64,000 nucleotides of DNA from Minisyncoccota bacterium (GTDB lineage Bacteria > Patescibacteriota > Minisyncoccia > 2-02-FULL-40-12 > IGHO2-01-FULL-4-A), in the NCBI GenBank assembly GCA_036517175.1, contig DATDXQ010000028.1, forward strand, positions 2,113 to 66,112. Direction: 5' to 3'. Shown one piece after another: positions 51,411-60,715 of the stretch. Each line of letters opens with the position of its first letter. Position 1 is the stretch's first letter. A model generated the notes under the pieces. It searched no databases. It was not told the DNA's origin and saw nothing but the letters and a program-made list of their open reading frames with translations. The translations under genes and the position numbers were made by a program.

Positions 51411-51712
51411 CCCTGTCCTCTCAGGTTTTCTACTCTATCCTTTTCATTTACATCCACCGCCATTCTTGTTCCGCCCCCGGCAAGACCCATATCACTTCCC
51501 AAAATCTCAAGGATTATATCCTCAGCCAATCCTTGCCTTCGACAACTAGCGATCGCGCCCGCAATCATAAGTTCCTGGAATTTTAGAGCCATCGCGTCAA
51601 CAACCGGATCACCGCTCTGAGTATCTTGACGTTGTGCTCTTAAGGCGGCCAAATGTAGGATTAATGCACCCTTGGCCATGCCTGCCACAAATTCATTATC
51701 TCGTCCACTCAT
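51407..51712 (-). CDS. Hypothetical protein.
   Basis: ATG at 51710-51712 with a GGAG SD (MSGRDNEF...). The ORF-track TTG start at 51790 is probably an over-extension. Confidence 0.4.
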   Translation of the reverse strand: MSGRDNEFVAGMAKGALILHLAALRAQRQDTQSGDPVVDAMALKFQELMIAGAIASCRRQGLAEDIILEILGSDMGLAGGGTRMAVDVNEKDRVENLRGQG

Positions 51713-51854
51713 GTCATCTTCTCCAATTTTAAATAGCACTTTGATTATACTGCCCAATATAGTTTTTGTCAAATTAAGATAGCACTTCAAATATTAGTTT
51801 AGTGCATATCTTTGCAAATCAAAACCGCCAATAATGGCGGGTGGCAAGATACTC

Positions 51855-52318
51855 CTATAAATTTTTTTCTAGAAATAACCTAGCTTTCCTAAATGCTTCA
51901 CCTCGATGAGATATTTTATTCTCATCCTCTGTCGTCATTTCAGCCAAAACTAAATTGGTACCTTCAGGAACAAATAGCCCACTGTAGGGCATCCCTGGTT
52001 GAAACTTTGCTCTAGGAGCTTCCAGTAATTGTCCATAGACTTTACCTGAAAAGAAATACTCATCGCCACTTGGTGCAACAACCACAAAGACCTTTCAGCA
52101 ACGCCTTCATTGGATTCACTTTCCTTGAATAGCATGCGATACCTATTTGCCCGATCGTGTAATAAGATCCCTTCAAATTGAGTAAGGGCAAATCTTCCAA
52201 GTTTCTTCAGAATCACACAAACTTCTGGATTATTCCCGTTTACTTCAAGTTCTTTTTCAATTTCGCCAATAAATACTTGAATTGTGACTTCAACTGTAAT
52301 TTTAGACAACATATCCAT
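51855..52318 (-). pseudogene. Candidate frameshifted gene: two overlapping ORFs in different frames.
   Basis: The 122-aa ORF (52318 to 51950) and the 76-aa ORF (52085 to 51855) overlap by 135 nt. Together they would read as one roughly 150-aa protein. Confidence 0.35.
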
Positions 52319-52449
52319 TGTCTAACTACTATTTTAAAGAATAAACCAACAATACCATAGAAATATTGTATTGTAAAGTACATTGCTGAGCTGGGACTTA
52401 GTTGGAAATCGATATTATTGAATATCCAAGAGATTTACGCTTTCGCAAA

Positions 52450-52485
52450 TTAAAAAGCCGAGCATAACTCGGTCCTACATTTTAT
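52450..52485 (-). terminator. Rho-independent terminator.
   Basis: gccgagc-ataa-ctcggtc hairpin. Minus-strand T-run with a conserved TTTTTAATTTGCGAA tail. Confidence 0.5.
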
Positions 52486-52487
52486 GA

Positions 52488-52700
52488 TTAGGTTTTACTT
52501 TTAAAATGGTCGAACTTATACCAAAGATCATCAAAATACGCCTTACAAGATGTGCAATCAGCAAAATGCAGAAGATCTTCATATGTTAGTCCGCTAACAC
52601 ACATCTTATGAAATTGCCCCACAGTGAAGTGGGTTCCTAGAGGAATTTCTAATCCAGTTGGTTTTGGTTTCTTAAATCTCTTTAATAACCATACTAGCAT
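52488..52700 (-). CDS. Small Cys/His-containing hypothetical protein.
   Basis: 70 aa. AGGAG SD. TTGACA-N17-TATTGT promoter at 52732-52760. Confidence 0.45.
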   Translation of the reverse strand: MLVWLLKRFKKPKPTGLEIPLGTHFTVGQFHKMCVSGLTYEDLLHFADCTSCKAYFDDLWYKFDHFKSKT

Positions 52701-52731
52701 TTTAGTCTCCTGTTATTAAGGAATAGGAAAA

Positions 52732-52760
52732 ACAATACTTCTTCTTGTTAGCATTGTCAA
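52732..52760 (-). promoter_or_regulatory. Sigma70-like promoter TTGACA-N17-TATTGT.
   Basis: Exact -35 hexamer and 17-nt spacer. Lies 30 nt upstream of the AGGAG SD of the 52700 gene. Confidence 0.5.
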
Positions 52761-52793
52761 TCTATTGGGGAAGGTTACTTAAGGGAGTAAGAA

Positions 52794-53870
52794 TTACTTT
52801 TTATTGTTCTGCAAAGGGTGGGATTTATTCTTCTCTACCCTTTCTATCATAAATTTTACAGCCTCGTTCGTATTGATAAATTGTAGCTTTATATCTGGAA
52901 GGTTGTTGTGAAATACCCTAAATATTTCATCCGCAAAAGCTTGTCCAATCATAGGAACCTTATCAAAATCAAATACGACAGATTTAAATTTATCTAAACC
53001 AGACAATACTCTACGTGCTTGGGAGCGAGAAACAAATACACCACCTATTGTATACAGCTTTATCTTAACTTCAGTTTTATCAAATCCTTGATAACCGTCC
53101 TCATTTTCTCCAGTATATTTTCTAAATATATCGTTTAGGTGCCTATCTGAATCTATCGAAATAGAAAAACTAACTTTAGTACCCTTTCTTATAGCTTTTG
53201 GTTTTTGTAAGAAAACATCATTAATTCTGTTGTTTACTATAACTAGTCTGTATCCAAAACTATCTAAATTAAACAGGTCGCCAGCCCTTGAAGTAAAGAA
53301 AATACCCTCACCAGAATGAGATTTAGGTTGTGTGGTTGTTTTTCCTTTCAATAAATCCTGAATGGCCTCGAGCTCCGATTTAAGAGTTCTTTTGACCATT
53401 ATGTTTTTATATACTCCAATTCCAGAATCTATTACATCAAAGAAAAGCTTCTTATTTTCAATTCTGACCTCGACCGTAATATTCTTTGATTTTGAATGCT
53501 CAATAGCATTGTTGAGCATCTCAGAAAAAGCATAAGTAAAAATACTCCTAACATTTTCCTTGAGGGTCAAGATAAGGGGAAACTTATTCTCTAGTTCATT
53601 CAAAACCTTGTGCTCTTCCAGCCCCTTATTCTTTAACGTTTTTTTTATTTTGTTAGGAAAAAGTTCTAAGTGGTTCGCAGCGTATTTAGGATTTAGATAT
53701 GAAGCCTTACTAGTTGAGCCGGTCTTTACTATTTTTCTCTCATTGACCAACTGTTTTAATAAAAAGCTTATATATTGCCTAGAAACGCCAAATATAGAGA
53801 CTAGATCCCTAGTTTTTAATTGTTTTTTTTGCTCTAAAATATTTAGTATTGTTTCTTTAGACAACTTCAT
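52794..53870 (-). CDS. Single-polypeptide wHTH + GHKL (HATPase_c) ATPase + STAS-like (DUF4325) protein.
   Basis: N-terminal HTH (LKTRDLVSIFGVSRQYISFLL). N-box NNAIEHS and G-box DSGIGV. C-terminal VVFDFDKVPMIGQAFADEIFRV, typical of DUF4325. Tandem TTGACA boxes with TATACT 7 nt from the ATG suggest a leaderless start. Confidence 0.6.
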   Translation of the reverse strand: MKLSKETILNILEQKKQLKTRDLVSIFGVSRQYISFLLKQLVNERKIVKTGSTSKASYLNPKYAANHLELFPNKIKKTLKNKGLEEHKVLNELENKFPLILTLKENVRSIFTYAFSEMLNNAIEHSKSKNITVEVRIENKKLFFDVIDSGIGVYKNIMVKRTLKSELEAIQDLLKGKTTTQPKSHSGEGIFFTSRAGDLFNLDSFGYRLVIVNNRINDVFLQKPKAIRKGTKVSFSISIDSDRHLNDIFRKYTGENEDGYQGFDKTEVKIKLYTIGGVFVSRSQARRVLSGLDKFKSVVFDFDKVPMIGQAFADEIFRVFHNNLPDIKLQFINTNEAVKFMIERVEKNKSHPLQNNKK

Positions 53871-54133
53871 TGACTTAAGTATATCAGTTGTAAAGCGGTT
53901 GTCAAGTAGTCTGGGGACGGTTGTCAACTTGGTTGTAAAGTTAGTGGCCGAGCTAGGTCTTCGTTGCTTCGCTCCTCCGAAGCTTTAGCAAAGGAGGGGG
54001 CATTTATTGATACCGAATATCCGGGAGATTTACTATTTTGCTACAAATTAAAAAGCGCCCTTCGATAAACTCAGAGCACTTCTTAATCTCAGTTTACACT
54101 GAGCTTGTCGAAGTGTTGCGGGGACAATCAATC

Positions 54134-54219
54134 GTTGGAACTACTTCTAAGCGATTAGTTGAGAAAGTTTTTAGGTATTACTTAAAAATAAAACCTATCG
54201 ATTAAGATAGGTGTTGGAA
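54134..54219 (-). repeat. Conserved 3'-end element copy A (GATTAGTTGA box plus terminator hairpin), flanked by GTTGGAA.
   Basis: Homologous to 54741-54840 and 58916-59030. Hairpin cctatc/gatagg. Confidence 0.55.
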
Positions 54220-54222
54220 ATA

Positions 54223-54633
54223 TCATCTACGGCCAGACCAGTTTTTACCACAGTCATCGCACCAATAGGCAGTAAAATCATATTCAGATTTTGATTTTAG
54301 GTTTGGGTGTTGGCATCTTTTTTGCAGTTCTATCAATTCATTTTCTACTACAGTAAGTTGGGCTTGAACTCCCTTTTTTCGAGACTCAATTTTTTTTCGG
54401 AGCTCAATTACATTATTCTGGGTAGCCTGAACAGATTCCTTAAATTCTTGACATCGGCAAGCGTTACAGCTTGTCCCAACTTTAATATTTTCTGACAATC
54501 CAATGTGATTATGATAATTGCGTGGGTGGCCACATTCACAGATTAATTCTGGATTGTAACGGCCAAAGACAGAGTGTGATACTTCGCTCACGCTCAACTC
54601 TTTGTTGTAAATTATCTGCCTAGAGAATATCAC
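54223..54633 (-). CDS. Zn-finger / coiled-coil small protein.
   Basis: 136 aa with no internal Met. CECGH...CNACRC and C-terminal CQHP...CDDCG. Central coiled coil. Non-ATG start; the exact start is uncertain. Confidence 0.45.
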   Translation of the reverse strand: MIFSRQIIYNKELSVSEVSHSVFGRYNPELICECGHPRNYHNHIGLSENIKVGTSCNACRCQEFKESVQATQNNVIELRKKIESRKKGVQAQLTVVENELIELQKRCQHPNLKSKSEYDFTAYWCDDCGKNWSGRR

Positions 54634-54740
54634 CCAAAAACCTTTTAATCAATATCCCTGCTGTCCCTCGATTTCCTCGGGATAAATCATTCCTTCGATA
54701 GTTCGGCAGGCACTTCGGCCGTGAGCCCAGCACCGAATGG

Positions 54741-54840
54741 CTCACTACTTGATCAGGGCAAGACTGCAAGCGATTAGTTGAAAGGGTGTTTAAATATTAC
54801 TTAGAAAATAAAAAAGAGGGATAAATCCCTCATCTTGGAA
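54741..54840 (-). repeat. Conserved 3'-end element copy B.
   Basis: GATTAGTTGA box at 54772-54781 plus hairpin gaggga/tccctc overlapping the RidA stop codon. Confidence 0.55.
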
Positions 54841-55276
54841 TAGCAGCAATTCCTCTGATTTCTACCATCGTATCTTCCAAGGGGTACTCCCACGGCACTT
54901 CTGATACCCAAACCTGACACCTGGCAGGCATGTTTCCTTTTTCTCTTGTAATACCGTATTGAGCAAAAAATTCACAGTAGGCAGAATTATAATCTTCACG
55001 GGATTTCTTTCGGTCTTTACAATCTTTCAAAAATACATCCATTGCTACAAACGAGCTGGCATCACCGCCTGCCTCCTCAACGATAGCAAGCATATTTTTC
55101 AATACTTGAGCGGTCTGTGGCCCATAACCACCTTCAACAACTGGCTCGCCATCACGGCTTTTATCATTTCCTGTTTGCCCAGCAAGAAAAAGAATTTTGT
55201 GGTTCATCGGGTCTACTAATACACCCTGACTGTATGCACCTGGAGTGGGAGTCTTATCAGTAAAAATATTCTGCAT
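54830..55276 (-). CDS. RidA/YjgF/Endoribonuclease L-PSP family protein.
   Basis: GAYSQGV..., GPQTAQVLKNM, VDVFL and the C-terminal PARCQVWVSEV...VEIRGIAA pattern. AAGGAG SD at the ATG at 55276. Confidence 0.65.
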   Translation of the reverse strand: MQNIFTDKTPTPGAYSQGVLVDPMNHKILFLAGQTGNDKSRDGEPVVEGGYGPQTAQVLKNMLAIVEEAGGDASSFVAMDVFLKDCKDRKKSREDYNSAYCEFFAQYGITREKGNMPARCQVWVSEVPWEYPLEDTMVEIRGIAAIPR

Positions 55277-55324
55277 TGTCTTTCTCCTTGTCAAAAATCA
55301 AAGTGATATTATCCTATCATATAT

Positions 55325-55591
55325 TTACAATAAGTCTAGCCCGGCTGATTTATCAGAACAAAAAAGCCGAGGGTTAGTCGGCATTTTGGGTAGTGCCCAA
55401 TTTGTAGGTGGATGGCGCAAGGGCTTCTTTATTCCACAATCCCAACAGTGACCACAATCGCTTATTAAATAATCGTGGTCGCAGGCCCACTTACCTACAT
55501 CGTCAGCACTAATTCTTTTTTTGAGGCCACTCAAACGAATTCTTAACACAAGATATTTAGCATTAGGGGCACGTTCGTATTCTGCTTTCAT
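55325..55591 (-). CDS. Small Cys-rich protein.
   Basis: CDHDYLISDCGHCWDCG cluster. The ATG at 55589-55591 lies 1 nt after the stop of the upstream gene. A hairpin/terminator is embedded in its last 15 codons. Confidence 0.4.
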   Translation of the reverse strand: MKAEYERAPNAKYLVLRIRLSGLKKRISADDVGKWACDHDYLISDCGHCWDCGIKKPLRHPPTNWALPKMPTNPRLFCSDKSAGLDLL

Positions 55592-55592
55592 T

Positions 55593-55811
55593 TTATTTCC
55601 AACCCAATACTTTCCAACCGTGTTCAGCATATAGGCCAAGGCCGTCTTTTCCTTCACAGCATTCAAGGAATGCATTTTCTGTATCAGACCAATAGAAATC
55701 GCCTGTAGAAACTTTTACACCAGGTCCTTCAAAGCGAAGCTTTACTGGTCTCGCCGTTCTCTTGGATGGTTCTGTGGTTTTCCAATTTCTATTTCTTGCT
55801 TTGGTAGCCAT
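55593..55811 (-). CDS. Small basic hypothetical protein (P1).
   Basis: 72 aa. GGAGGAAGAGA SD. Promoter/operator module upstream. Confidence 0.5.
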   Translation of the reverse strand: MATKARNRNWKTTEPSKRTARPVKLRFEGPGVKVSTGDFYWSDTENAFLECCEGKDGLGLYAEHGWKVLGWK

Positions 55812-55846
55812 TCTCTTCCTCCGATAATTTCAATGAACCTGGAAAC

Positions 55847-55875
55847 AAAATACACCTTATTGGTGTATTTTGCAA
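55847..55875 (-). promoter_or_regulatory. Promoter TTGCAA-N17-TATTTT with an embedded operator palindrome AAAATACACC-N5-GGTGTATTTT.
   Basis: Perfect 10-bp inverted repeat spanning the spacer. A near-identical copy sits at 57824-57852. Confidence 0.55.
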
Positions 55876-56072
55876 AATGCCAACCAGGTCTGGGACCCGG
55901 GAAAATTGTACTCGCCGCCTACTGGTGCTGGGCATACCACGACTTCTGTCTCTGGCATTTCGGAGCTCTCGCTCCTCAACTGTCACTCGCCAAAAGGTAT
56001 GTACCACACCTGCTGGCTTTGGTGTTTGGGCAAATCAAAAAGCGGCTAATGCCGCTTTAAACAACTGTTCAA

Positions 56073-56357
56073 TTAGTAAATAGCGAGGGTTTGTCCATTT
56101 ATTACTATCGCCACATCCCTATCCAACGAAGTACATTCAGAATCTACAACAAAATCATCGTTTTTCGTCCGTATCAAAAGAACCAGATGTGCTGGAAATC
56201 CCTCCTTCACTACAAGATCAAAACTAATATCCCCGCTAGAAACATCGCGTAGTTTTTTTCTTGTTTCAAAAACCGCTTCTGAATTTTCTATTGTACGCCC
56301 AGTCTCCTCCAGTGCTATAATCCGATCTTCTTGAGCAGATAACTGCCTTATTTTCAT
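56073..56357 (-). CDS. Hypothetical protein.
   Basis: 95 aa. ATG at 56355-56357 with an AGGAG SD. TTGACA-N17-TATTAT promoter at 56386-56414. The ORF-track start at 56435 is an over-extension. Confidence 0.45.
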   Translation of the reverse strand: MKIRQLSAQEDRIIALEETGRTIENSEAVFETRKKLRDVSSGDISFDLVVKEGFPAHLVLLIRTKNDDFVVDSECTSLDRDVAIVINGQTLAIY

Positions 56358-56623
56358 AACGACTCCTATTTTAAAAGACAATACAATAATACAACCTACA
56401 TGTGGTATTGTCAATCTACACTTTGGCCTGCACATCCACTCTATTGAGCTCTGTATTTCTTCGTTCTCACTCAGTCACTGGCCTCAGTACAAAATTACCT
56501 TCATTCGCTTGTTGCAGAGCTTCGACAGAATTGCCTGCCTGCCGTAGCTTTAGCAAAGTAGGGTGAGGAGTTGGTAAAAATAAAACCGAGGAGAGCTCGG
56601 TATTGGTAAAACGTAATTATTTA

Positions 56624-57358
56624 TTAGTATTCTGCGACTGTTAAATTCATGGATAAATCTAAAAAGGAATCTACGCAGAGAAATGGCCCACCGGGGGTTT
56701 CAAATGTTCTTTTATTTTGTAAGACTGGTTCGACACACACATAATCTTTAGGTGCATCGGTCCACAAGACAAGTTGGGATTTGACTGGCGCAAACGCTCC
56801 TCCAAGCTCCATCATTATATTTTTGCTTGGCATAGCGATAAGAATGGCCTCACTACTTATTCCTACTGATCTCGATTCACAAGAAAAACCATTGTAGGCA
56901 GCTCCACCATTCAAAACTCTTACAGTGCTCTCGTCTTTACATCCAAAATACGGATGAAATGCTGGAAGCACTGGGGCTGGTATAACTTCTTTGTCATCCA
57001 TCCGATCTATACGTAATGTCATCTTCAATCCATTAGTATATGCGTAGACTCCAATCTCGTATCCTAAAGACCATGGATAGCTTTCATTCCCAGGATGATG
57101 AAAAATTAGTTTGGCATTATTAGATTCGAGTTTTACATCTCGGGCCTCCAAATCTCGTAGATAACCATGCTTCTTCTTGCTTCTTGGGGATTGACCAAAC
57201 CATGGAGCACATATATGACAGCCACCACGTGCCTTATCTCCAATTTGGCGCCAAGGATACAATATCTCTAGCTTATCTACTACGGCAGAGGTAATAGTCC
57301 CGCCAGTAGAAGAGAGGTGAATTTCCGTTTGGCCATTTCTAATAACAATATCTTCCAT
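56624..57358 (-). CDS. D-hexose-6-phosphate mutarotase / aldose 1-epimerase family (YeaD-like).
   Basis: GGCHICAPWFG and HGYLR motifs. ATG at 57356-57358 with a GGAGG SD. TTGACA-N17-TATTTT promoter at 57400-57428. Confidence 0.6.
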   Translation of the reverse strand: MEDIVIRNGQTEIHLSSTGGTITSAVVDKLEILYPWRQIGDKARGGCHICAPWFGQSPRSKKKHGYLRDLEARDVKLESNNAKLIFHHPGNESYPWSLGYEIGVYAYTNGLKMTLRIDRMDDKEVIPAPVLPAFHPYFGCKDESTVRVLNGGAAYNGFSCESRSVGISSEAILIAMPSKNIMMELGGAFAPVKSQLVLWTDAPKDYVCVEPVLQNKRTFETPGGPFLCVDSFLDLSMNLTVAEY

Positions 57359-57565
57359 CGTGTCCTCCAGACCTAGCAAATTGTTAAATAGATAATAAAA
57401 AAATAGCACTTCATTGCTATTTTGTCAATATATTCTTGCCCTTCGTGATTACACTCAGGGCTGCGTCGGCCTTCGCCTCCTTGTTGCAGAAGTGTTGCGT
57501 GATTGGCAACAAATACTGCTTGATTTGAAAGAAGTCTACACTTTTGCAAATTAAAAAGTGCGATA

Positions 57566-57793
57566 TTATCGCACTTCAAATCTTCGGCCAAACCAATAAC
57601 AGCCGGGTTCTTCTTGAAGTTCCATTCGGCCACCCTCGTTATGCCATTGGGCAGGATTGTCTGCAAAAAGAGTTCTGCACTTATCGGAAGGTATAAATTC
57701 TTTTACAGTATATTTTCTTCCTTTTGTCAGCGCTGGTCCAATACCTTCCATTTTTTCATCAACACATTCGACCGTCTGGCCTTCTTGAAACAT
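57566..57793 (-). CDS. Small hypothetical protein (P2).
   Basis: 75 aa. AAGGAG SD. The operator-containing promoter at 57824-57852 is paralogous to the P1 promoter. Confidence 0.5.
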   Translation of the reverse strand: MFQEGQTVECVDEKMEGIGPALTKGRKYTVKEFIPSDKCRTLFADNPAQWHNEGGRMELQEEPGCYWFGRRFEVR

Positions 57794-57823
57794 ACACTTC
57801 TCCTTGTTAATTTAGCTGAAAAC

Positions 57824-57852
57824 AAAATACACCAATAAGGTGTATTTTGCAA
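57824..57852 (-). promoter_or_regulatory. Promoter TTGCAA-N17-TATTTT with operator palindrome AAAATACACC-N5-GGTGTATTTT (copy 2).
   Basis: Same palindrome arms as 55847-55871. The loop is AATAA rather than TTATT. Confidence 0.55.
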
Positions 57853-57949
57853 CTTATGCCAATCTTGTCTCATTTGTTGCGGAACTCTTACGCAGTTGAC
57901 ACCTTTTGATACCGAATATACAAAAGATTTGCAATTTTGCTCTGGTATA

Positions 57950-58146
57950 AAAAGTGAACCCCCGGGTCGTGGCCACGACATCGGGGGTTAATGTGCACGG
58001 ATTGTTTACCGTGCTGCCTGTTTTCGACCTTGCGGTCGGGCGACCTCCAATAGGGTTTGGGGAGCCTAGGCTCCTTATCCGCCTGTGGCGGACCTACCTT
58101 CGAACCCTCCTCTCGAGAAGCTACCTCAAGAGAAACTCAATGTTGT
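57950..58146 (-). ncRNA. Standalone roughly 200-nt GC-rich structured RNA with its own promoter and terminator. Class not identified.
   Basis: TTGACT-N17-TATACT promoter at 58153-58181. GC-rich terminator hairpin at 57957-57989 plus T5. No ORF. Much more GC-rich than the surrounding sequence. Confidence 0.55.
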
Positions 58147-58346
58147 GAATTAAGTATAGCATATCCTAAGTATAAAGTCAATAGCAACCAAAAACAGCCC
58201 TTGAAAGCTGTTTTTGCAAAGTGCCAAATGGGTCTGGGACCTGGAAATTTGTTGCAGAATTAGGACTTCGTTGGTATTTAATATTACCGGGTATCAAAGA
58301 AATTTATCAGTTTAATCTTGTAAATTAAAAGTCCGCAAAGCGGACA

Positions 58347-58529
58347 TTAGATAGATTTGGGAATTTTACCTTTACCATTGCAGGTCGGGCAGGTTGTAGT
58401 TCTGGTTTCTGGCATTGGAAAACCAAATAATCCTATATATGCAGCGTTCATGATTGTTTCTGTCTTTGAGCCAGACCCGCTGCAATTCCAGCAGATCTGC
58501 TCTTTATTTTGATCTTTGTTGGTTGCCAC
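58347..58529 (-). CDS. Small zinc-ribbon protein.
   Basis: 61 aa. CWNC...CPTC. ATG with a GGGGGTGA SD. TTGACA-N17-TATTGT promoter at 58568-58596. Confidence 0.5.
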   Translation of the reverse strand: MATNKDQNKEQICWNCSGSGSKTETIMNAAYIGLFGFPMPETRTTTCPTCNGKGKIPKSI

Positions 58530-58698
58530 CATACTATCACCCCCTATCTGTGTTAAGGAACAATAAAACAATACGCCATTTCTGGCGTATTGTCAATATT
58601 TGCACTTCGGCCTGTTGGCCTCAGTACAAAATTACCTTCGTAATTTATTTTTGTACCCTTCGGCTGTTGCCTACGGGCACTGCGTCGCCTTCGCTCCT

Positions 58699-58718
58699 TG
58701 TTGCGGGGGCAGGATTTG
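58699..58718 (-). repeat. 20-nt direct repeat of the tRNA-fMet 3' end (att-like).
   Basis: TGTTGCGGGGGCAGGATTTG is identical to 60584-60603 inside or adjacent to the tRNA gene. Confidence 0.6.
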
Positions 58719-58915
58719 GTTTCGCCTCTCGTTGGCTTCCGCCTCCTCGGGCTAACCACCACCTCGCGTGACTTTATGCCAATTGCATAAAGTCACATGC
58801 TCCGGCGTTCAAATACTGACGAAAGTGACACGGGTCACTTCCTCTCCCCGCAAACATATACGATAAATATAAACGGCTCACATGGTGAGCCGTTTATATT
58901 TTGGGGCAATCAAAT

Positions 58916-59030
58916 GTTGGAACCCTTCGACTACGCTCAGGACAGGCTTGTAAAAGATTAGTTGAGAATATATTTAGATATTATTTGGAGAATAAAAACG
59001 GCATTTAGCCGTATATATTTGTTGGTGAAG
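58916..59030 (-). repeat. Conserved 3'-end element copy C.
   Basis: GATTAGTTGA box at 58956-58965. Hairpin cggc/gccg at the stop codon of the 59005 gene. GTTGGAA / GTTGGTGAA flanks. Confidence 0.5.
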
Positions 59031-59472
59031 TCTCAAGCAGTAGGTCGCAATCTCTGCATACTAATCCGAATCCGCAACCTTGCCCGATTTCTTCAACCCT
59101 CTTTTCGTTTGAATGAGAACAACTTTTCTGTTTCCTTGTGAGTCCAGTCTTACCTTTGGCCTTTTTTCCTTCGACTACTTTGATAGAAAAACTGTGCTTA
59201 TACCGTTTCCCGCTACGATGAGCAGATTCTGTGAAAATTATCTTTGTACCCAGCGGGATTTTATCTAAAAAATTACTCGACTTTTCTATCTTCTCTGGTA
59301 TCAGGCAACTTTTGCCTTTCCTTGTTTCGACCTTACCGTGAGTAGACCATTTCTCATTAACAACGCCATTAACTACGAATTGTGTTGGAGTACGATTCGG
59401 TTCTGTTTTCTCCAGAACTCCTGTAGCAGTATATGTATACCATCCATCTATAGCATCTTTTCGTTTAGCCAT
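59005..59472 (-). CDS. Hypothetical protein with a C-terminal zinc ribbon.
   Basis: 155 aa. C-terminal CSHS...GCGFGLVCRDC. AAAGGAGAA SD. 1-nt TAATG overlap with the upstream gene. Confidence 0.45.
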   Translation of the reverse strand: MAKRKDAIDGWYTYTATGVLEKTEPNRTPTQFVVNGVVNEKWSTHGKVETRKGKSCLIPEKIEKSSNFLDKIPLGTKIIFTESAHRSGKRYKHSFSIKVVEGKKAKGKTGLTRKQKSCSHSNEKRVEEIGQGCGFGLVCRDCDLLLETSPTNIYG

Positions 59473-59774
59473 TACTTAAGTTCTCCTTTCGGCACATCTT
59501 CCGTCAACACAACAGTTGTCACTAATCCTAAGCCACTATTGAATTTCCAGTTTTGACCATCCCAATCCATACCATGGTCGAAAGTATCAGTAAATAATCT
59601 TCCTTTCTTAACTCCGATAGCATCACTGCCATCTTCGTAAGATACCAGGCCATAGCCAGTGTTTTTGTAGGCGAACTTATCGCCTGGCTTTAGATTCTTT
59701 AGCCGTTTTAGACGGTCTTCAGGAGTTAATGCGATTGAAACCGCTTTATTCTGCTTAGTCTTTTTTGCCATCAT
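59472..59774 (-). CDS. Hypothetical protein.
   Basis: 100 aa. Translationally coupled to the 59005 gene. Confidence 0.45.
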   Translation of the reverse strand: MMAKKTKQNKAVSIALTPEDRLKRLKNLKPGDKFAYKNTGYGLVSYEDGSDAIGVKKGRLFTDTFDHGMDWDGQNWKFNSGLGLVTTVVLTEDVPKGELK

Positions 59775-59943
59775 TCACCTCTAAGTTGAATAAGGACTGG
59801 AAAGATATTAGCAAACAAGGGGTTCCAAATCAATGTCCCCGATGTCATTCACGACATTCGCTAAGCATGCTCCGCATACAACTTGTTGTTGTGCGGGGTT
59901 CGCCAAGTTTTACAATGTCCCAGAAATGTACTAATCTTTTGAA

Positions 59944-60402
59944 ATGGATTTTGAATATTTTAACTCAAGGAAAGAAAAAGTCCGAGAAACTTACAATAAA
60001 CAAAAGGCTATTTTCTGTCCCTTTCTTCAGGCTCAGGTTGTTTTAAACTCAGATGGATTTCATCACTTACAATTCTCCGATAGAAGAGAGCGAGGCAAAG
60101 AAGAGCAACTATTAAAATTTAATCTATTACCTCTGGCGCTCGATATTATTAAAAAATCAGGAACGCTTCAGGAATACAGAAAGGAACCGGTTAGAATCGG
60201 GCGCACATCAAAAGACGGTTTTTCTACAACTAAAATCGCTGAATATTTTGGATTCGTAGCCATAGTCGGAGAAAAGAAAATTAAGATAAGGGTTATTGTG
60301 AGACGAATCGGCGATGGGAATTTTAGCTTTTGGAGTGTAATGCCAGACAGTAAGCTGAAAGGCGGTCAAAGATTATATGATTACGGAATCGAAGATAATT
60401 AA
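59944..60402 (+). CDS. Hypothetical protein.
   Basis: 152 aa. TTTACA-N17-TAATCT promoter-like sequence close to the ATG. Terminator hairpin at 60404-60440. Confidence 0.4.
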   Translation: MDFEYFNSRKEKVRETYNKQKAIFCPFLQAQVVLNSDGFHHLQFSDRRERGKEEQLLKFNLLPLALDIIKKSGTLQEYRKEPVRIGRTSKDGFSTTKIAEYFGFVAIVGEKKIKIRVIVRRIGDGNFSFWSVMPDSKLKGGQRLYDYGIEDN

Positions 60403-60585
60403 AACTAAAAAACGCCCCATGAGGCGTTTTTTAGTGTGCCTGTCTTCAGCTTTGGAAATCCTTAGCTGAACGGGGCTTGCGCCCACAAGCACGATGTAAA
60501 TGTAGCATACTTTAGTTAAAAAAAGCAAGTCCTGTTGATAATTCTATGAAAAACAGGAGATTTCTCTCCTGTTTCTCCTGCTCTG

Positions 60586-60658
60586 TTGCGGGGGCAGGAT
60601 TTGAACCTGCGATCTTTGGGTTATGAGCCCAACGAGATGACCACTTCTCCACCCCGCG
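60586..60658 (-). tRNA. Initiator tRNA-fMet (anticodon CAT).
   Basis: Cloverleaf folded by hand. C1:A72 mismatch. D-stem GAGA/TCTC with A11:U24. Three G-C pairs at the base of the anticodon stem (GGG/CCC). T-loop GGTTCAAATCC. Terminator hairpin at 60548-60580. Confidence 0.8.
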
Positions 60659-60715
60659 ATAATGTTTTATAAATTAAAAACTAATTGAAATCATAACAAA
60701 TTAAGACCAAAAAGC

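What the first reader, a model, noticed from the sequence alone, without database searches (positions are those of the whole stretch)
58699..60658. Initiator tRNA-fMet with a perfect 20-nt direct repeat of its 3' end 1.9 kb away, plus degenerate older copies: an integration hotspot without an integrase
TGTTGCGGGGGCAGGATTTG occurs at 60584-60603 (tRNA 3' end) and at 58699-58718 in the same orientation. This is the signature of site-specific integration into a tRNA gene. The enclosed 1.9 kb carries three small unknown genes (59005-60402). Shorter decayed matches (TGTTGCGGGG at 54115; AAGTGTTGCG at 57490) suggest successive insertions that built the whole 52.7-60.6 kb small-gene region. No integrase is present in the window. 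That points to a decayed islet, or one mobilised in trans.
Basis: partly seen in the sequence, partly recalled or inferred. Interest (0 to 1): 0.6.

Follow-up and report, generated by a model that had tools for sequence, protein, structure and literature searches.

The report
tRNA-fMet-anchored array of integrase-less mini-cassettes
In this uncultured Paceibacteria (CPR) bacterium, the 3' end of the initiator tRNA gene has served repeatedly as a docking site for very small gene cassettes, each leaving a copy of the tRNA end behind; this is a familiar kind of genome island, but it is unusually miniature and has no recombinase gene nearby.

Summary
TGTTGCGGGGGCAGGATTTG occurs exactly twice, in the same orientation. 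One copy is the 3' end of an initiator-type tRNA-Met (60585-60658, minus). The other, at 58699-58718, is not a tRNA.

Comparison with related metagenomic contigs supports site-specific recombination at this tRNA end.
- Two relatives also carry direct copies of their tRNA-fMet 3' end 0.8-1.5 kb downstream.
- Relatives L117 and L121 are homologous up to GTTGCGGGGG and then diverge, one into the tRNA and the other into inserted DNA.

The 1.9 kb interval is composite, not one islet.
- Next to the tRNA lies a conserved structured-RNA plus solo-LPD3-protein module. The same module sits beside the tRNA in a relative.
- Next comes a near-orphan two-gene cassette (99 and 155 aa) that ends in a conserved ~90-nt module mimicking the tRNA end.
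- Last comes a 186-nt gene-less unit that carries the perfect repeat.

No integrase is present in the 64 kb window. No empty site or excised circle was found, and base composition is native.

Best reading: an accretion array of CIME-like remnants. An integron-like capture system remains possible.

The parts
60585..60658 (-). Initiator-type tRNA-Met(CAU) gene. It is the anchor (attB/attL side) of the array.
   Evidence: ARAGORN. Rfam tRNA, 67.5 bits. The sequence shows the C1:A72 mismatch and GGG/CCC in the anticodon stem.
60584..60603 (.). Core copy 1: the last 19 nt of the tRNA plus 1 nt beyond it.
60552..60573 (-). Hairpin followed by a T run just after the tRNA; probably the tRNA terminator.
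   Evidence: Sequence; coordinates.
60404..60492 (-). Conserved 57-nt three-helix RNA-like motif (60436-60492) plus a bidirectional terminator (60404-60435). It is convergent with the LPD3 gene.
   Evidence: nhmmer finds it next to the homologous gene in about 80 loci, E 1e-11 to 1e-24. 97.5% of cells are paired, 3 pairs show compensatory change, and 0 of 500 shuffles reach the covariation score. No Rfam family matches. Terminator.
59944..60402 (+). 152-aa solo LPD3-domain protein. It belongs to a large, highly conserved family whose named members are all Patescibacteria or unclassified 'bacterium' MAGs.
59887..59898 (.). Tentative decayed core-like sequence TGTTGTGCGGGG, just outside the conserved LPD3 unit.
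   Evidence: Weak: absent from L117 and L265.
59005..59771 (-). Two-gene cassette: 99-aa gene (59472-59771) and 155-aa gene (59005-59472). Both are near-orphans.
   Evidence: No Pfam, PHROG or PADLOC hits. The 155-aa protein has only 6 database relatives. The homologous cassette sits in a different context in L265.
58899..59002 (-). Type-A cassette-end module: terminator-proximal conserved block plus GGTTCCAAC..TTGCCCC. Here the tRNA-end mimic has decayed.
   Evidence: nhmmer E 2.4e-17 against a 5-copy model; alignment.
58865..58901 (.). Perfect 17-bp hairpin between the type-A module and the type-C unit.
58695..58864 (-). Type-C unit: a strongly folding, gene-less element. Its 3' end (in tRNA sense) is the perfect 20-nt core at 58699-58718. 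Its other end (58846-58856) is an inverted, degenerate copy of the tRNA end.
   Evidence: Homologous unit at L121 1397-1564 (nhmmer E about 1e-42). Fold -72 kcal/mol, z = -5.45. The hairpins differ in sequence but keep their pairing.
58598..58698 (-). 100-nt segment between the distal core and the next promoter. It is absent from a 99.6%-identical strain contig (L105), where a core directly abuts the promoter.
58347..58596 (-). Next cassette: TTGACA-17-TATTGT promoter (58568-58596) and a zinc-ribbon protein gene of 61-74 aa.
57461..57499 (-). Decayed junction. Two overlapping GCAACA remnants are followed by the same post-core sequence as at 58680-58698 (25 of 27 nt).
56509..56519 (-). Decayed junction: CTCTGCAACA|AGCGAATGAAGG. 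The exact 24-nt repeat 56479-56502 = 58616-58639 lies beside it.
54111..54199 (-). Complete type-A module ending in CCCCGCAACA.
   Evidence: nhmmer E 1.1e-22. 26 of 27 nt identical to L121 22-48.
54745..54815 (-). Partial type-A module lacking the tRNA-end mimic.
   Evidence: nhmmer E 1.7e-8.

Best explanation
The 20-nt repeat is an att-core duplicate left by site-specific recombination at the 3' end of the initiator tRNA gene. In this Paceibacteria lineage that tRNA end anchors a head-to-tail array of very small units (0.2-2 kb). A typical unit starts just after a core with its own promoter, carries one to four small genes and a terminator, and ends in a conserved arm (type A, about 90 nt, or type C, about 165 nt) whose last bases copy the tRNA end CCCCGCAAC(A).

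The array grew by accretion. Incoming circular elements recombined with the tRNA core, or with a core copy already in the array. Deletion, point decay and homologous recombination between the repeated arms then eroded the array.

What remains has att-like ends but no recombinase, so the units are CIME-like. Any present-day movement would need a recombinase supplied in trans.

Shown: the repeats, the conserved end modules, their recurrence with unrelated cargo in several genomes, one tRNA-versus-insertion comparison between relatives, and the absence of an integrase locally.

Inferred: the recombinase, the circular intermediates and the order of events.
For: - The exact 20-mer occurs only at the tRNA end and at 58699, with sharp edges.
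- Other tRNA-fMet loci of the lineage show the same thing. L117 has an 11-12-nt copy 1.47 kb away. L118 has a 15-nt copy 0.84 kb away and a 12-nt copy 5.7 kb away. All are in direct orientation. No such copies were found for seven other tRNAs lying near LPD3 genes.
- L117 and L121 are homologous downstream of the tRNA up to GTTGCGGGGG. They then diverge, into the tRNA in L117 and into a type-C arm in L121.
- The type-A module recurs seven times in five sources (E 1e-8 to 1e-24). It follows unrelated genes: the 155-aa and 136-aa genes and RidA in the window (this third copy is partial and lacks the core), a 194-aa gene in L117, an 87-aa ORF in L121 and an M23 peptidase in L266. Wherever it is complete it ends in CCCCGCAAC(A).
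- A promoter follows directly after the core in L266, L105 and L118.
- The post-core sequence AGGAG(G)CGAAGGC(C)GACGCAG is shared by the 58699 and 57482 junctions.
- A 99.6%-identical strain differs by a 100-nt indel exactly at the distal core.
- No integrase was found in the window or in relatives' loci.
Against: - No recombinase was identified anywhere.
- No empty site was found for this particular junction.
- No attB or attP junction appears among the 44 occurrences of the core in fetched contigs; only the two known junctions are seen.
- All 19 contigs carrying the 99-aa gene show the same arrangement.
- Composition is indistinguishable from the rest of the window.
- The tRNA-proximal LPD3 unit lies beside the tRNA in L117 too, at 78.8% DNA identity. 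The interval is therefore not a single recent insertion.
- The perfect core lies distal to decayed ones, which a strict newest-next-to-the-tRNA order does not predict.
- Some homology breakpoints fall inside genes (L266 and the 155-aa gene). Ordinary homologous recombination therefore also shapes the region.
Confidence: 0.62

Rival explanations
1. An integron-like capture platform. A dedicated recombinase encoded elsewhere in the genome inserts and excises small cassettes at the tRNA-fMet end. The type-A and type-C arms act as cassette recombination sites. On this view the cassettes are complete functional units rather than wreckage of larger islands.
For: - The units are integron-sized (0.2-2 kb), and most genes in the array point the same way as the tRNA.
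- They are separated by a conserved ~90-nt module shared by unrelated cargo in several genomes.
- Each new unit starts immediately after the core.
- A 186-189-nt gene-less unit is conserved in two genomes, in different contexts.
- None of roughly eight units carries a recombinase.
Against: - No IntI-like or other recombinase has been seen.
- Type-A modules do not fold as attC-like hairpins: z-scores run from -2.3 to +1.1 and there is no consensus structure.
- The cassettes have their own promoters.
- No excised circles or cassette reshuffling were seen among same-population contigs.
- Breakpoints inside genes argue against clean cassette exchange.
Confidence: 0.2
2. A lineage-specific family of intergenic repeats (REP- or MITE-like, or promoter/terminator modules) that happens to contain a tRNA-fMet-like end. 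The family spread by homologous recombination, gene conversion or transposition rather than by integration at the tRNA.
For: - Many intergenic repeat families (D1-D13) pervade 52-59 kb and recur in L266.
- The type-C unit has inverted terminal copies of the core and folds strongly.
- Type-A copies in L265 and L266 have no tRNA-fMet within their short contigs.
Against: - All complete copies end exactly at the tRNA 3' terminus and share its orientation. The arrays start at the tRNA gene.
- The L117/L121 divergence point lies at the tRNA end.
- No target-site duplications were seen.
- Type A gives no significant hit in the first 50 kb of the window.
Confidence: 0.12
3. A remnant of a duplicated tRNA gene (a decaying pseudogene), unrelated to any insertion.
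For: The type-C model aligns weakly along whole tRNA-fMet genes (E 0.07-0.08). A 5' stretch, CGCGAGGTGGTG, resembles the tRNA 5' end.
Against: - Identity is 20/20 and then drops to background; uniform decay would not give that pattern.
- It is not called as a tRNA at any threshold.
- The same core recurs with three different arm types and in other genomes.
Confidence: 0.04

Closest known systems
Dehalococcoides ssrA genomic islands (McMurdie et al. 2011, PMC3146451)
   Same: A 20-bp direct repeat of the 3' end of a single-copy small-RNA gene. Multiple tandem islands lie downstream, each bounded by the repeat. A conserved motif next to the repeat does not align with the gene itself. Some islands lack integration genes and are discussed as cis-mobilizable elements formed by accretion.
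   Different: The target there is tmRNA, not the initiator tRNA. Sixteen of those islands carry a serine-recombinase (DsiB) integration module. Here the units are 0.2-2 kb and none carries a recombinase.
CIMEs and site-specific accretion in streptococci (the model summarised in Guedon et al. 2017, PMC5704250, which cites Pavlovic 2004 and Bellanger 2011)
   Same: Elements that keep attL and attR but have lost their integration and transfer genes. Tandem arrays are built when new elements integrate into an att site of a resident one.
   Different: Those are known from Firmicutes and derive from identifiable ICEs or IMEs, with a helper ICE available. Here no parent element or helper is known, and the units are miniature.
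Chromosomal integron cassette arrays / CALINs (from my own knowledge of the integron literature)
   Same: Arrays of small, mostly unknown genes separated by a conserved repeat of about 90-120 nt. The array is anchored at one primary site. Orphan genes are abundant.
   Different: No IntI. The repeats are not attC-like hairpins. The cassettes have their own promoters. The conserved core mimics a tRNA 3' end.
tRNA-integrating prophages and genomic islands with tyrosine integrases (general knowledge; Williams 2002 classification of tRNA sublocations)
   Same: The crossover lies at the 3' end of a tRNA gene. The tRNA is restored by element DNA, and the displaced 3' fragment lies at the far end.
   Different: The defining neighbouring integrase gene is missing, and the enclosed DNA is 1.9 kb and composite.
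IMEX elements that exploit host XerCD at dif (general knowledge)
   Same: Integrated elements without a recombinase of their own, found as tandem arrays at one chromosomal site.
   Different: The site here is a tRNA end, not a dif site. No link to Xer was tested.

Membership tests
tRNA-targeting integrative element (island or prophage) | An intact tRNA gene at one boundary and a direct repeat of its 3' end at the other. | tested here: met
tRNA-targeting integrative element (island or prophage) | An integrase gene inside the element, usually next to the tRNA. | tested here: not met
   No recombinase family among the ORFs between the repeats or elsewhere in the window.
tRNA-targeting integrative element (island or prophage) | An unoccupied site in a related genome, with homology breaking at the core. 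| tested here: inconclusive
   Met for a sister event: L117 (tRNA) versus L121 (type-C arm) diverge at the core. Not found for the window's own 58699 junction. Only the two known junction types occur in 44 core occurrences.
CIME (cis-mobilizable element) | attL and attR are retained while integration and transfer genes are absent. | tested here: met
CIME (cis-mobilizable element) | Excision or mobilisation by a recombinase supplied by a related autonomous element. | not testable with these tools
   No helper element was found. IMG/VR scans for the core and the arm gave nothing related.
Integron / CALIN | attC sites: imperfect palindromes that fold as hairpins with R''/R' (GTTRRRY) boxes. | tested here: not met
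   No consensus structure. DNA-fold z-scores from -2.3 to +1.1. GTTGCGG does not fit GTTRRRY.
Integron / CALIN | An IntI integrase next to the array, with promoterless cassettes. | tested here: not met
   No integrase. A sigma-70-like promoter lies directly after a core.
tRNA pseudogene / duplicated tRNA | The distal copy is recognisable as a tRNA over its whole length. | tested here: not met
   ARAGORN. Rfam at E <= 0.5. Body alignment p = 0.09-0.2.
MITE / REP-type repeat | Many dispersed copies with terminal inverted repeats and target-site duplications. | tested here: inconclusive
   The type-C unit has inverted core-like ends, but there is only one copy in 64 kb and one in L121. No target duplications were seen.
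LPD3 domain (Pfam PF18798), for the 152-aa protein | A match to the LPD3 profile or fold. | tested here: inconclusive
   The window protein itself gives no Pfam hit. 6 of 48 family members match, best E 7.6e-6. The top BFVD fold matches are LPD3 proteins, E 3.5e-4 to 6.6e-3.

The most novel reading that the evidence does not exclude
Paceibacteria carry a tRNA-fMet-anchored, integron-like gene-capture platform. A trans-encoded recombinase shuttles promoter-bearing mini-cassettes, including a 186-nt protein-less one. The cassette recombination sites are conserved arms of about 90-165 nt that end in a mimic of the initiator tRNA 3' terminus. One widespread passenger would be a previously undescribed structured RNA paired with a solo LPD3 protein.
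Probability: 0.2. Interest if true: 0.8.

Novelty: new variant of a known kind. Interest (0 to 1): 0.55.

Why it matters
Mobile elements and gene flow in CPR/Patescibacteria, which have tiny genomes, are poorly described; full-text searches found no description of tRNA-anchored islands in them. This locus shows that the single initiator tRNA gene can act as a long-lived entry point for small accessory genes. It also gives precise junction sequences that can be searched for in reads, to learn whether the units still move and which recombinase moves them. If a trans-acting recombinase exists, this would be a second, independent solution to cassette capture besides integrons. Separately, the conserved RNA-plus-LPD3 pair is a testable handle on a domain of unknown function that is common in phage polyvalent proteins.

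Tried and rejected
- RNR-based scan of GTDB genomes. The best relatives are only 67-69% identical and have no tRNA-fMet next to RNR, so they were useless for an empty-site test.
- Exact-protein look-ups. They returned only the same population, always with the same arrangement.
- Contig ends cluster at 58597-58999 and at 60590/60609, including Logan contigs that end inside both core copies. This suggests heterogeneity, but the end positions do not match a simple attB/attL branch, so I do not count it as evidence.
- Contig L097 leaves the window at 58957 for GC-rich, HsdS-like sequence. I treated it as a possible chimera.
- IMG/VR scans for the 20-mer (0 hits), for a generic tRNA-fMet end (63 hits, nearly all phage tRNA genes) and for the type-A arm (14 unrelated coding hits) gave no parent element.
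- The LPD3 gene family is not generally adjacent to tRNAs: about 9 of 80 loci lie within 800 bp of a tRNA, and the tRNAs are of various identities. The idea that this gene is the element's targeting factor was therefore dropped.
- Full-length pseudo-tRNA reading of the distal copy: not significant.
- attC-like folding of the type-A module: rejected.
- Compositional foreignness: none.
Full report
**Observation**

TGTTGCGGGGGCAGGATTTG occurs at 58699-58718 and 60584-60603 on the + strand. There is no third match even with three mismatches, and no shuffle reproduces two matches.

The right-hand copy is the 3' end of the only tRNA in the window, tRNA-Met(CAU) at 60585-60658 on the minus strand. 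Its sequence carries the textbook marks of a bacterial initiator: a C1:A72 mismatch and G29-31:C39-41. CCA is not encoded.

Identity ends abruptly on both sides. The DNA beyond the distal copy is not significantly tRNA-like (p = 0.09-0.2). Neither ARAGORN nor Rfam calls it a tRNA, even at E <= 0.5.

Three ORFs lie between the copies, and public gene calls agree with them.

**Organism and setting**

- The neighbouring class II ribonucleotide reductase is 67-69% identical at best to genes of Yanofskybacteria and Paceibacterota MAGs.
- NCBI holds an identical copy of the 155-aa protein, named as a hypothetical protein of a Candidatus Paceibacterota MAG.
- The rest of the window encodes glycosylation and housekeeping functions. 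No recombinase family was found among the ORFs scanned or carrying precomputed Pfam calls, nor within 6.4 kb beyond the right end.
- GC content and trinucleotide usage of the interval, and of the whole 50.7-60.6 kb small-gene region, are unremarkable.

**The interval is composite**

*(a) The tRNA-proximal unit.* Window 59898-60661 is 78.8% identical at the DNA level to relative L117. Both have the order tRNA-fMet, spacer, 152-aa gene.
- In eight relatives, homology to the window always starts near 59904 and ends near 60492-60512. This defines a discrete unit.
- Its protein belongs to a large family. There are 777 hits; the best 120 listed are mostly 60-92% identical, and the named members are Patescibacteria or unclassified MAGs. 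Its only detectable affinity is the LPD3 domain of phage polyvalent proteins. The function of LPD domains is unknown (PMC5512222).
- Its non-coding part is a 57-nt three-helix motif plus a terminator. The motif accompanies the gene in about 80 loci, either convergent or upstream on the same strand. It has modest but real covariation and no Rfam match.

*(b) The 99-aa plus 155-aa operon.* It is a near-orphan. In L265 the homologous cassette (window 59865->58916) sits in a different context.

*(c) The type-A module.* This conserved ~90-nt module directly follows the 155-aa gene's terminator.

*(d) The type-C unit.* A perfect hairpin and a ~165-nt strongly folding unit follow. The last 20 nt of that unit are the perfect repeat.

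**Evidence that the tRNA end is a recombination site**

- L117 has GTTGCGGGGGC(A) 1.47 kb downstream of its tRNA-fMet. L118 has 15-nt and 12-nt copies. L121 has three copies. All are in direct orientation. Seven other tRNAs lying near LPD3 genes show nothing comparable.
- A model built from five type-A copies finds seven copies in five sources (E 1e-8 to 1e-24). Each follows a different gene. Each complete copy ends in GGTTCCAAC(N7-9)CCCCGCAAC(A), which mimics the T-arm and acceptor end of the tRNA.
- Right after the core, a new unit begins with a promoter. L266 reads ...CCCCCGCAACA|AGGA TTGACAATACGCC. L118 and the strain variant L105 are similar.
- In the window, the post-core sequence AGGAG(G)CGAAGGC(C)GACGCAG follows both the perfect core and a decayed double core at 57482-57499. 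A third decayed junction is at 56509-56519.
- L117 and L121 align well (most columns identical by eye) over the ~100 nt downstream of the tRNA, up to and including GTTGCGGGGG. L117 then continues as the tRNA and L121 as a type-C arm. This is the pattern expected when one lineage has acquired an insertion at the tRNA end.
- A 99.6%-identical strain contig (L105) lacks the 100 nt between the distal core and the next promoter. The junction therefore varies among close strains.

**What is missing**

- No recombinase.
- No empty site for the window's own junction.
- No attB or attP junction among 44 core occurrences in fetched contigs.
- No cassette polymorphism among 19 contigs.
- No parent element in IMG/VR.
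- The perfect core lies distal to decayed cores, and the proximal LPD3 unit is shared with L117. Integration must therefore sometimes have used a core copy inside the array, or later rearrangements occurred.
- Homology with L266 breaks inside the 155-aa gene. Homologous recombination between arms therefore also contributes.

**Interpretation**

The best-supported model is accretion at a tRNA att site followed by decay, leaving CIME-like units. The model follows PMC5704250, and the closest precedent is the Dehalococcoides ssrA islands (PMC3146451).

Three features distinguish this case:
- the size of the units (0.2-2 kb), including a 186-189-nt gene-less unit conserved in two genomes;
- the sharing of one ~90-nt arm by unrelated cargo;
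- the complete absence of recombinase genes.

These features keep an integron-like capture system alive as a minority reading. However, the arms are not attC-like and the cassettes have their own promoters.

A duplicated-tRNA origin and a chance origin are rejected. A purely repeat-family explanation is unlikely, because the copies end at the tRNA terminus, share its orientation and start at the tRNA gene.

**Verdict**

The phenomenon is of a known kind, in an unusual miniature and integrase-less form, in a poorly studied phylum. Whether the units still move is open. The RNA-plus-LPD3 module found on the way may be the most original item in the region.

Noticed in passing
window 60404-60492 (-) with 59944-60402 (+); L121-L200: A conserved 57-nt three-helix RNA-like motif (GUGCUUG-U-GGGC GNAA GCCC-CGUU-CAGCUAAGG..CCUAAGCUG-AAGG-CAAGCAC) plus a terminator accompanies the 152-aa solo-LPD3 gene in about 80 Patescibacteria loci. 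It occurs in two layouts: convergent, or upstream on the same strand. It matches no Rfam family. It is a candidate new RNA-protein module; a type III toxin-antitoxin-like arrangement is only a guess.
   Followed up: partly
window 58695-58904; L121 1397-1603: A gene-less unit of about 186-189 nt is flanked by tRNA-end cores. It consists of a hairpin plus a ~165-nt sequence with inverted core-like ends and folds very stably (z = -5.45). Its hairpins differ in sequence between the two genomes but keep their pairing. It may be a minimal non-autonomous element or an unknown RNA.
   Followed up: partly
window 51700-59000; L266: Several families of short intergenic repeats tile the gaps between small genes and recur in related contigs. 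They include promoter-with-hairpin D1, D3, D4, D7/D9, and the exact 24-mer shared by 56479-56502 and 58616-58639.
   Followed up: partly
L097 1178-1495 versus window 58957: One 1.5 kb contig carries the 99-aa and 155-aa genes at 99.8% identity, then leaves the window sequence inside the type-A module for GC-rich DNA encoding an HsdS-like peptide. It is either a chimera or the cassette in another context.
   Followed up: no
window 58956-59140; L266 566-750: The last ~135 nt of the 155-aa gene, together with its terminator and type-A module, are about 85% identical to the 3' end of an M23 peptidase gene in L266. The breakpoint lies inside the coding sequence.
   Followed up: partly
window 57794-58346: A 553-nt stretch has no convincing ORF and is packed with repeat copies (D3, D4, D7, D9). 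One public annotation places an odd 36-aa gene spanning 489 nt here. There is no Rfam match.
   Followed up: no
window 58597-58999 and 60590-60609: Ends of independently assembled contigs cluster here. Two Logan contigs end at 58703 and two others at 60590 and 60609, that is, in or next to the two core copies. This may reflect strain heterogeneity.
   Followed up: partly
L118 820-1077; L117 3632-4638: In L118 a small GIY-YIG protein gene sits next to the LPD3 unit. In L117 two tandem paralogues with QAYDKA repeats follow the distal core.
   Followed up: no
window 52794-53927 (-): A 358-377-aa protein with a histidine-kinase-like ATPase domain and a DUF4325 (STAS-like) domain lies within the cassette region, just after the complete type-A module.
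   Followed up: no
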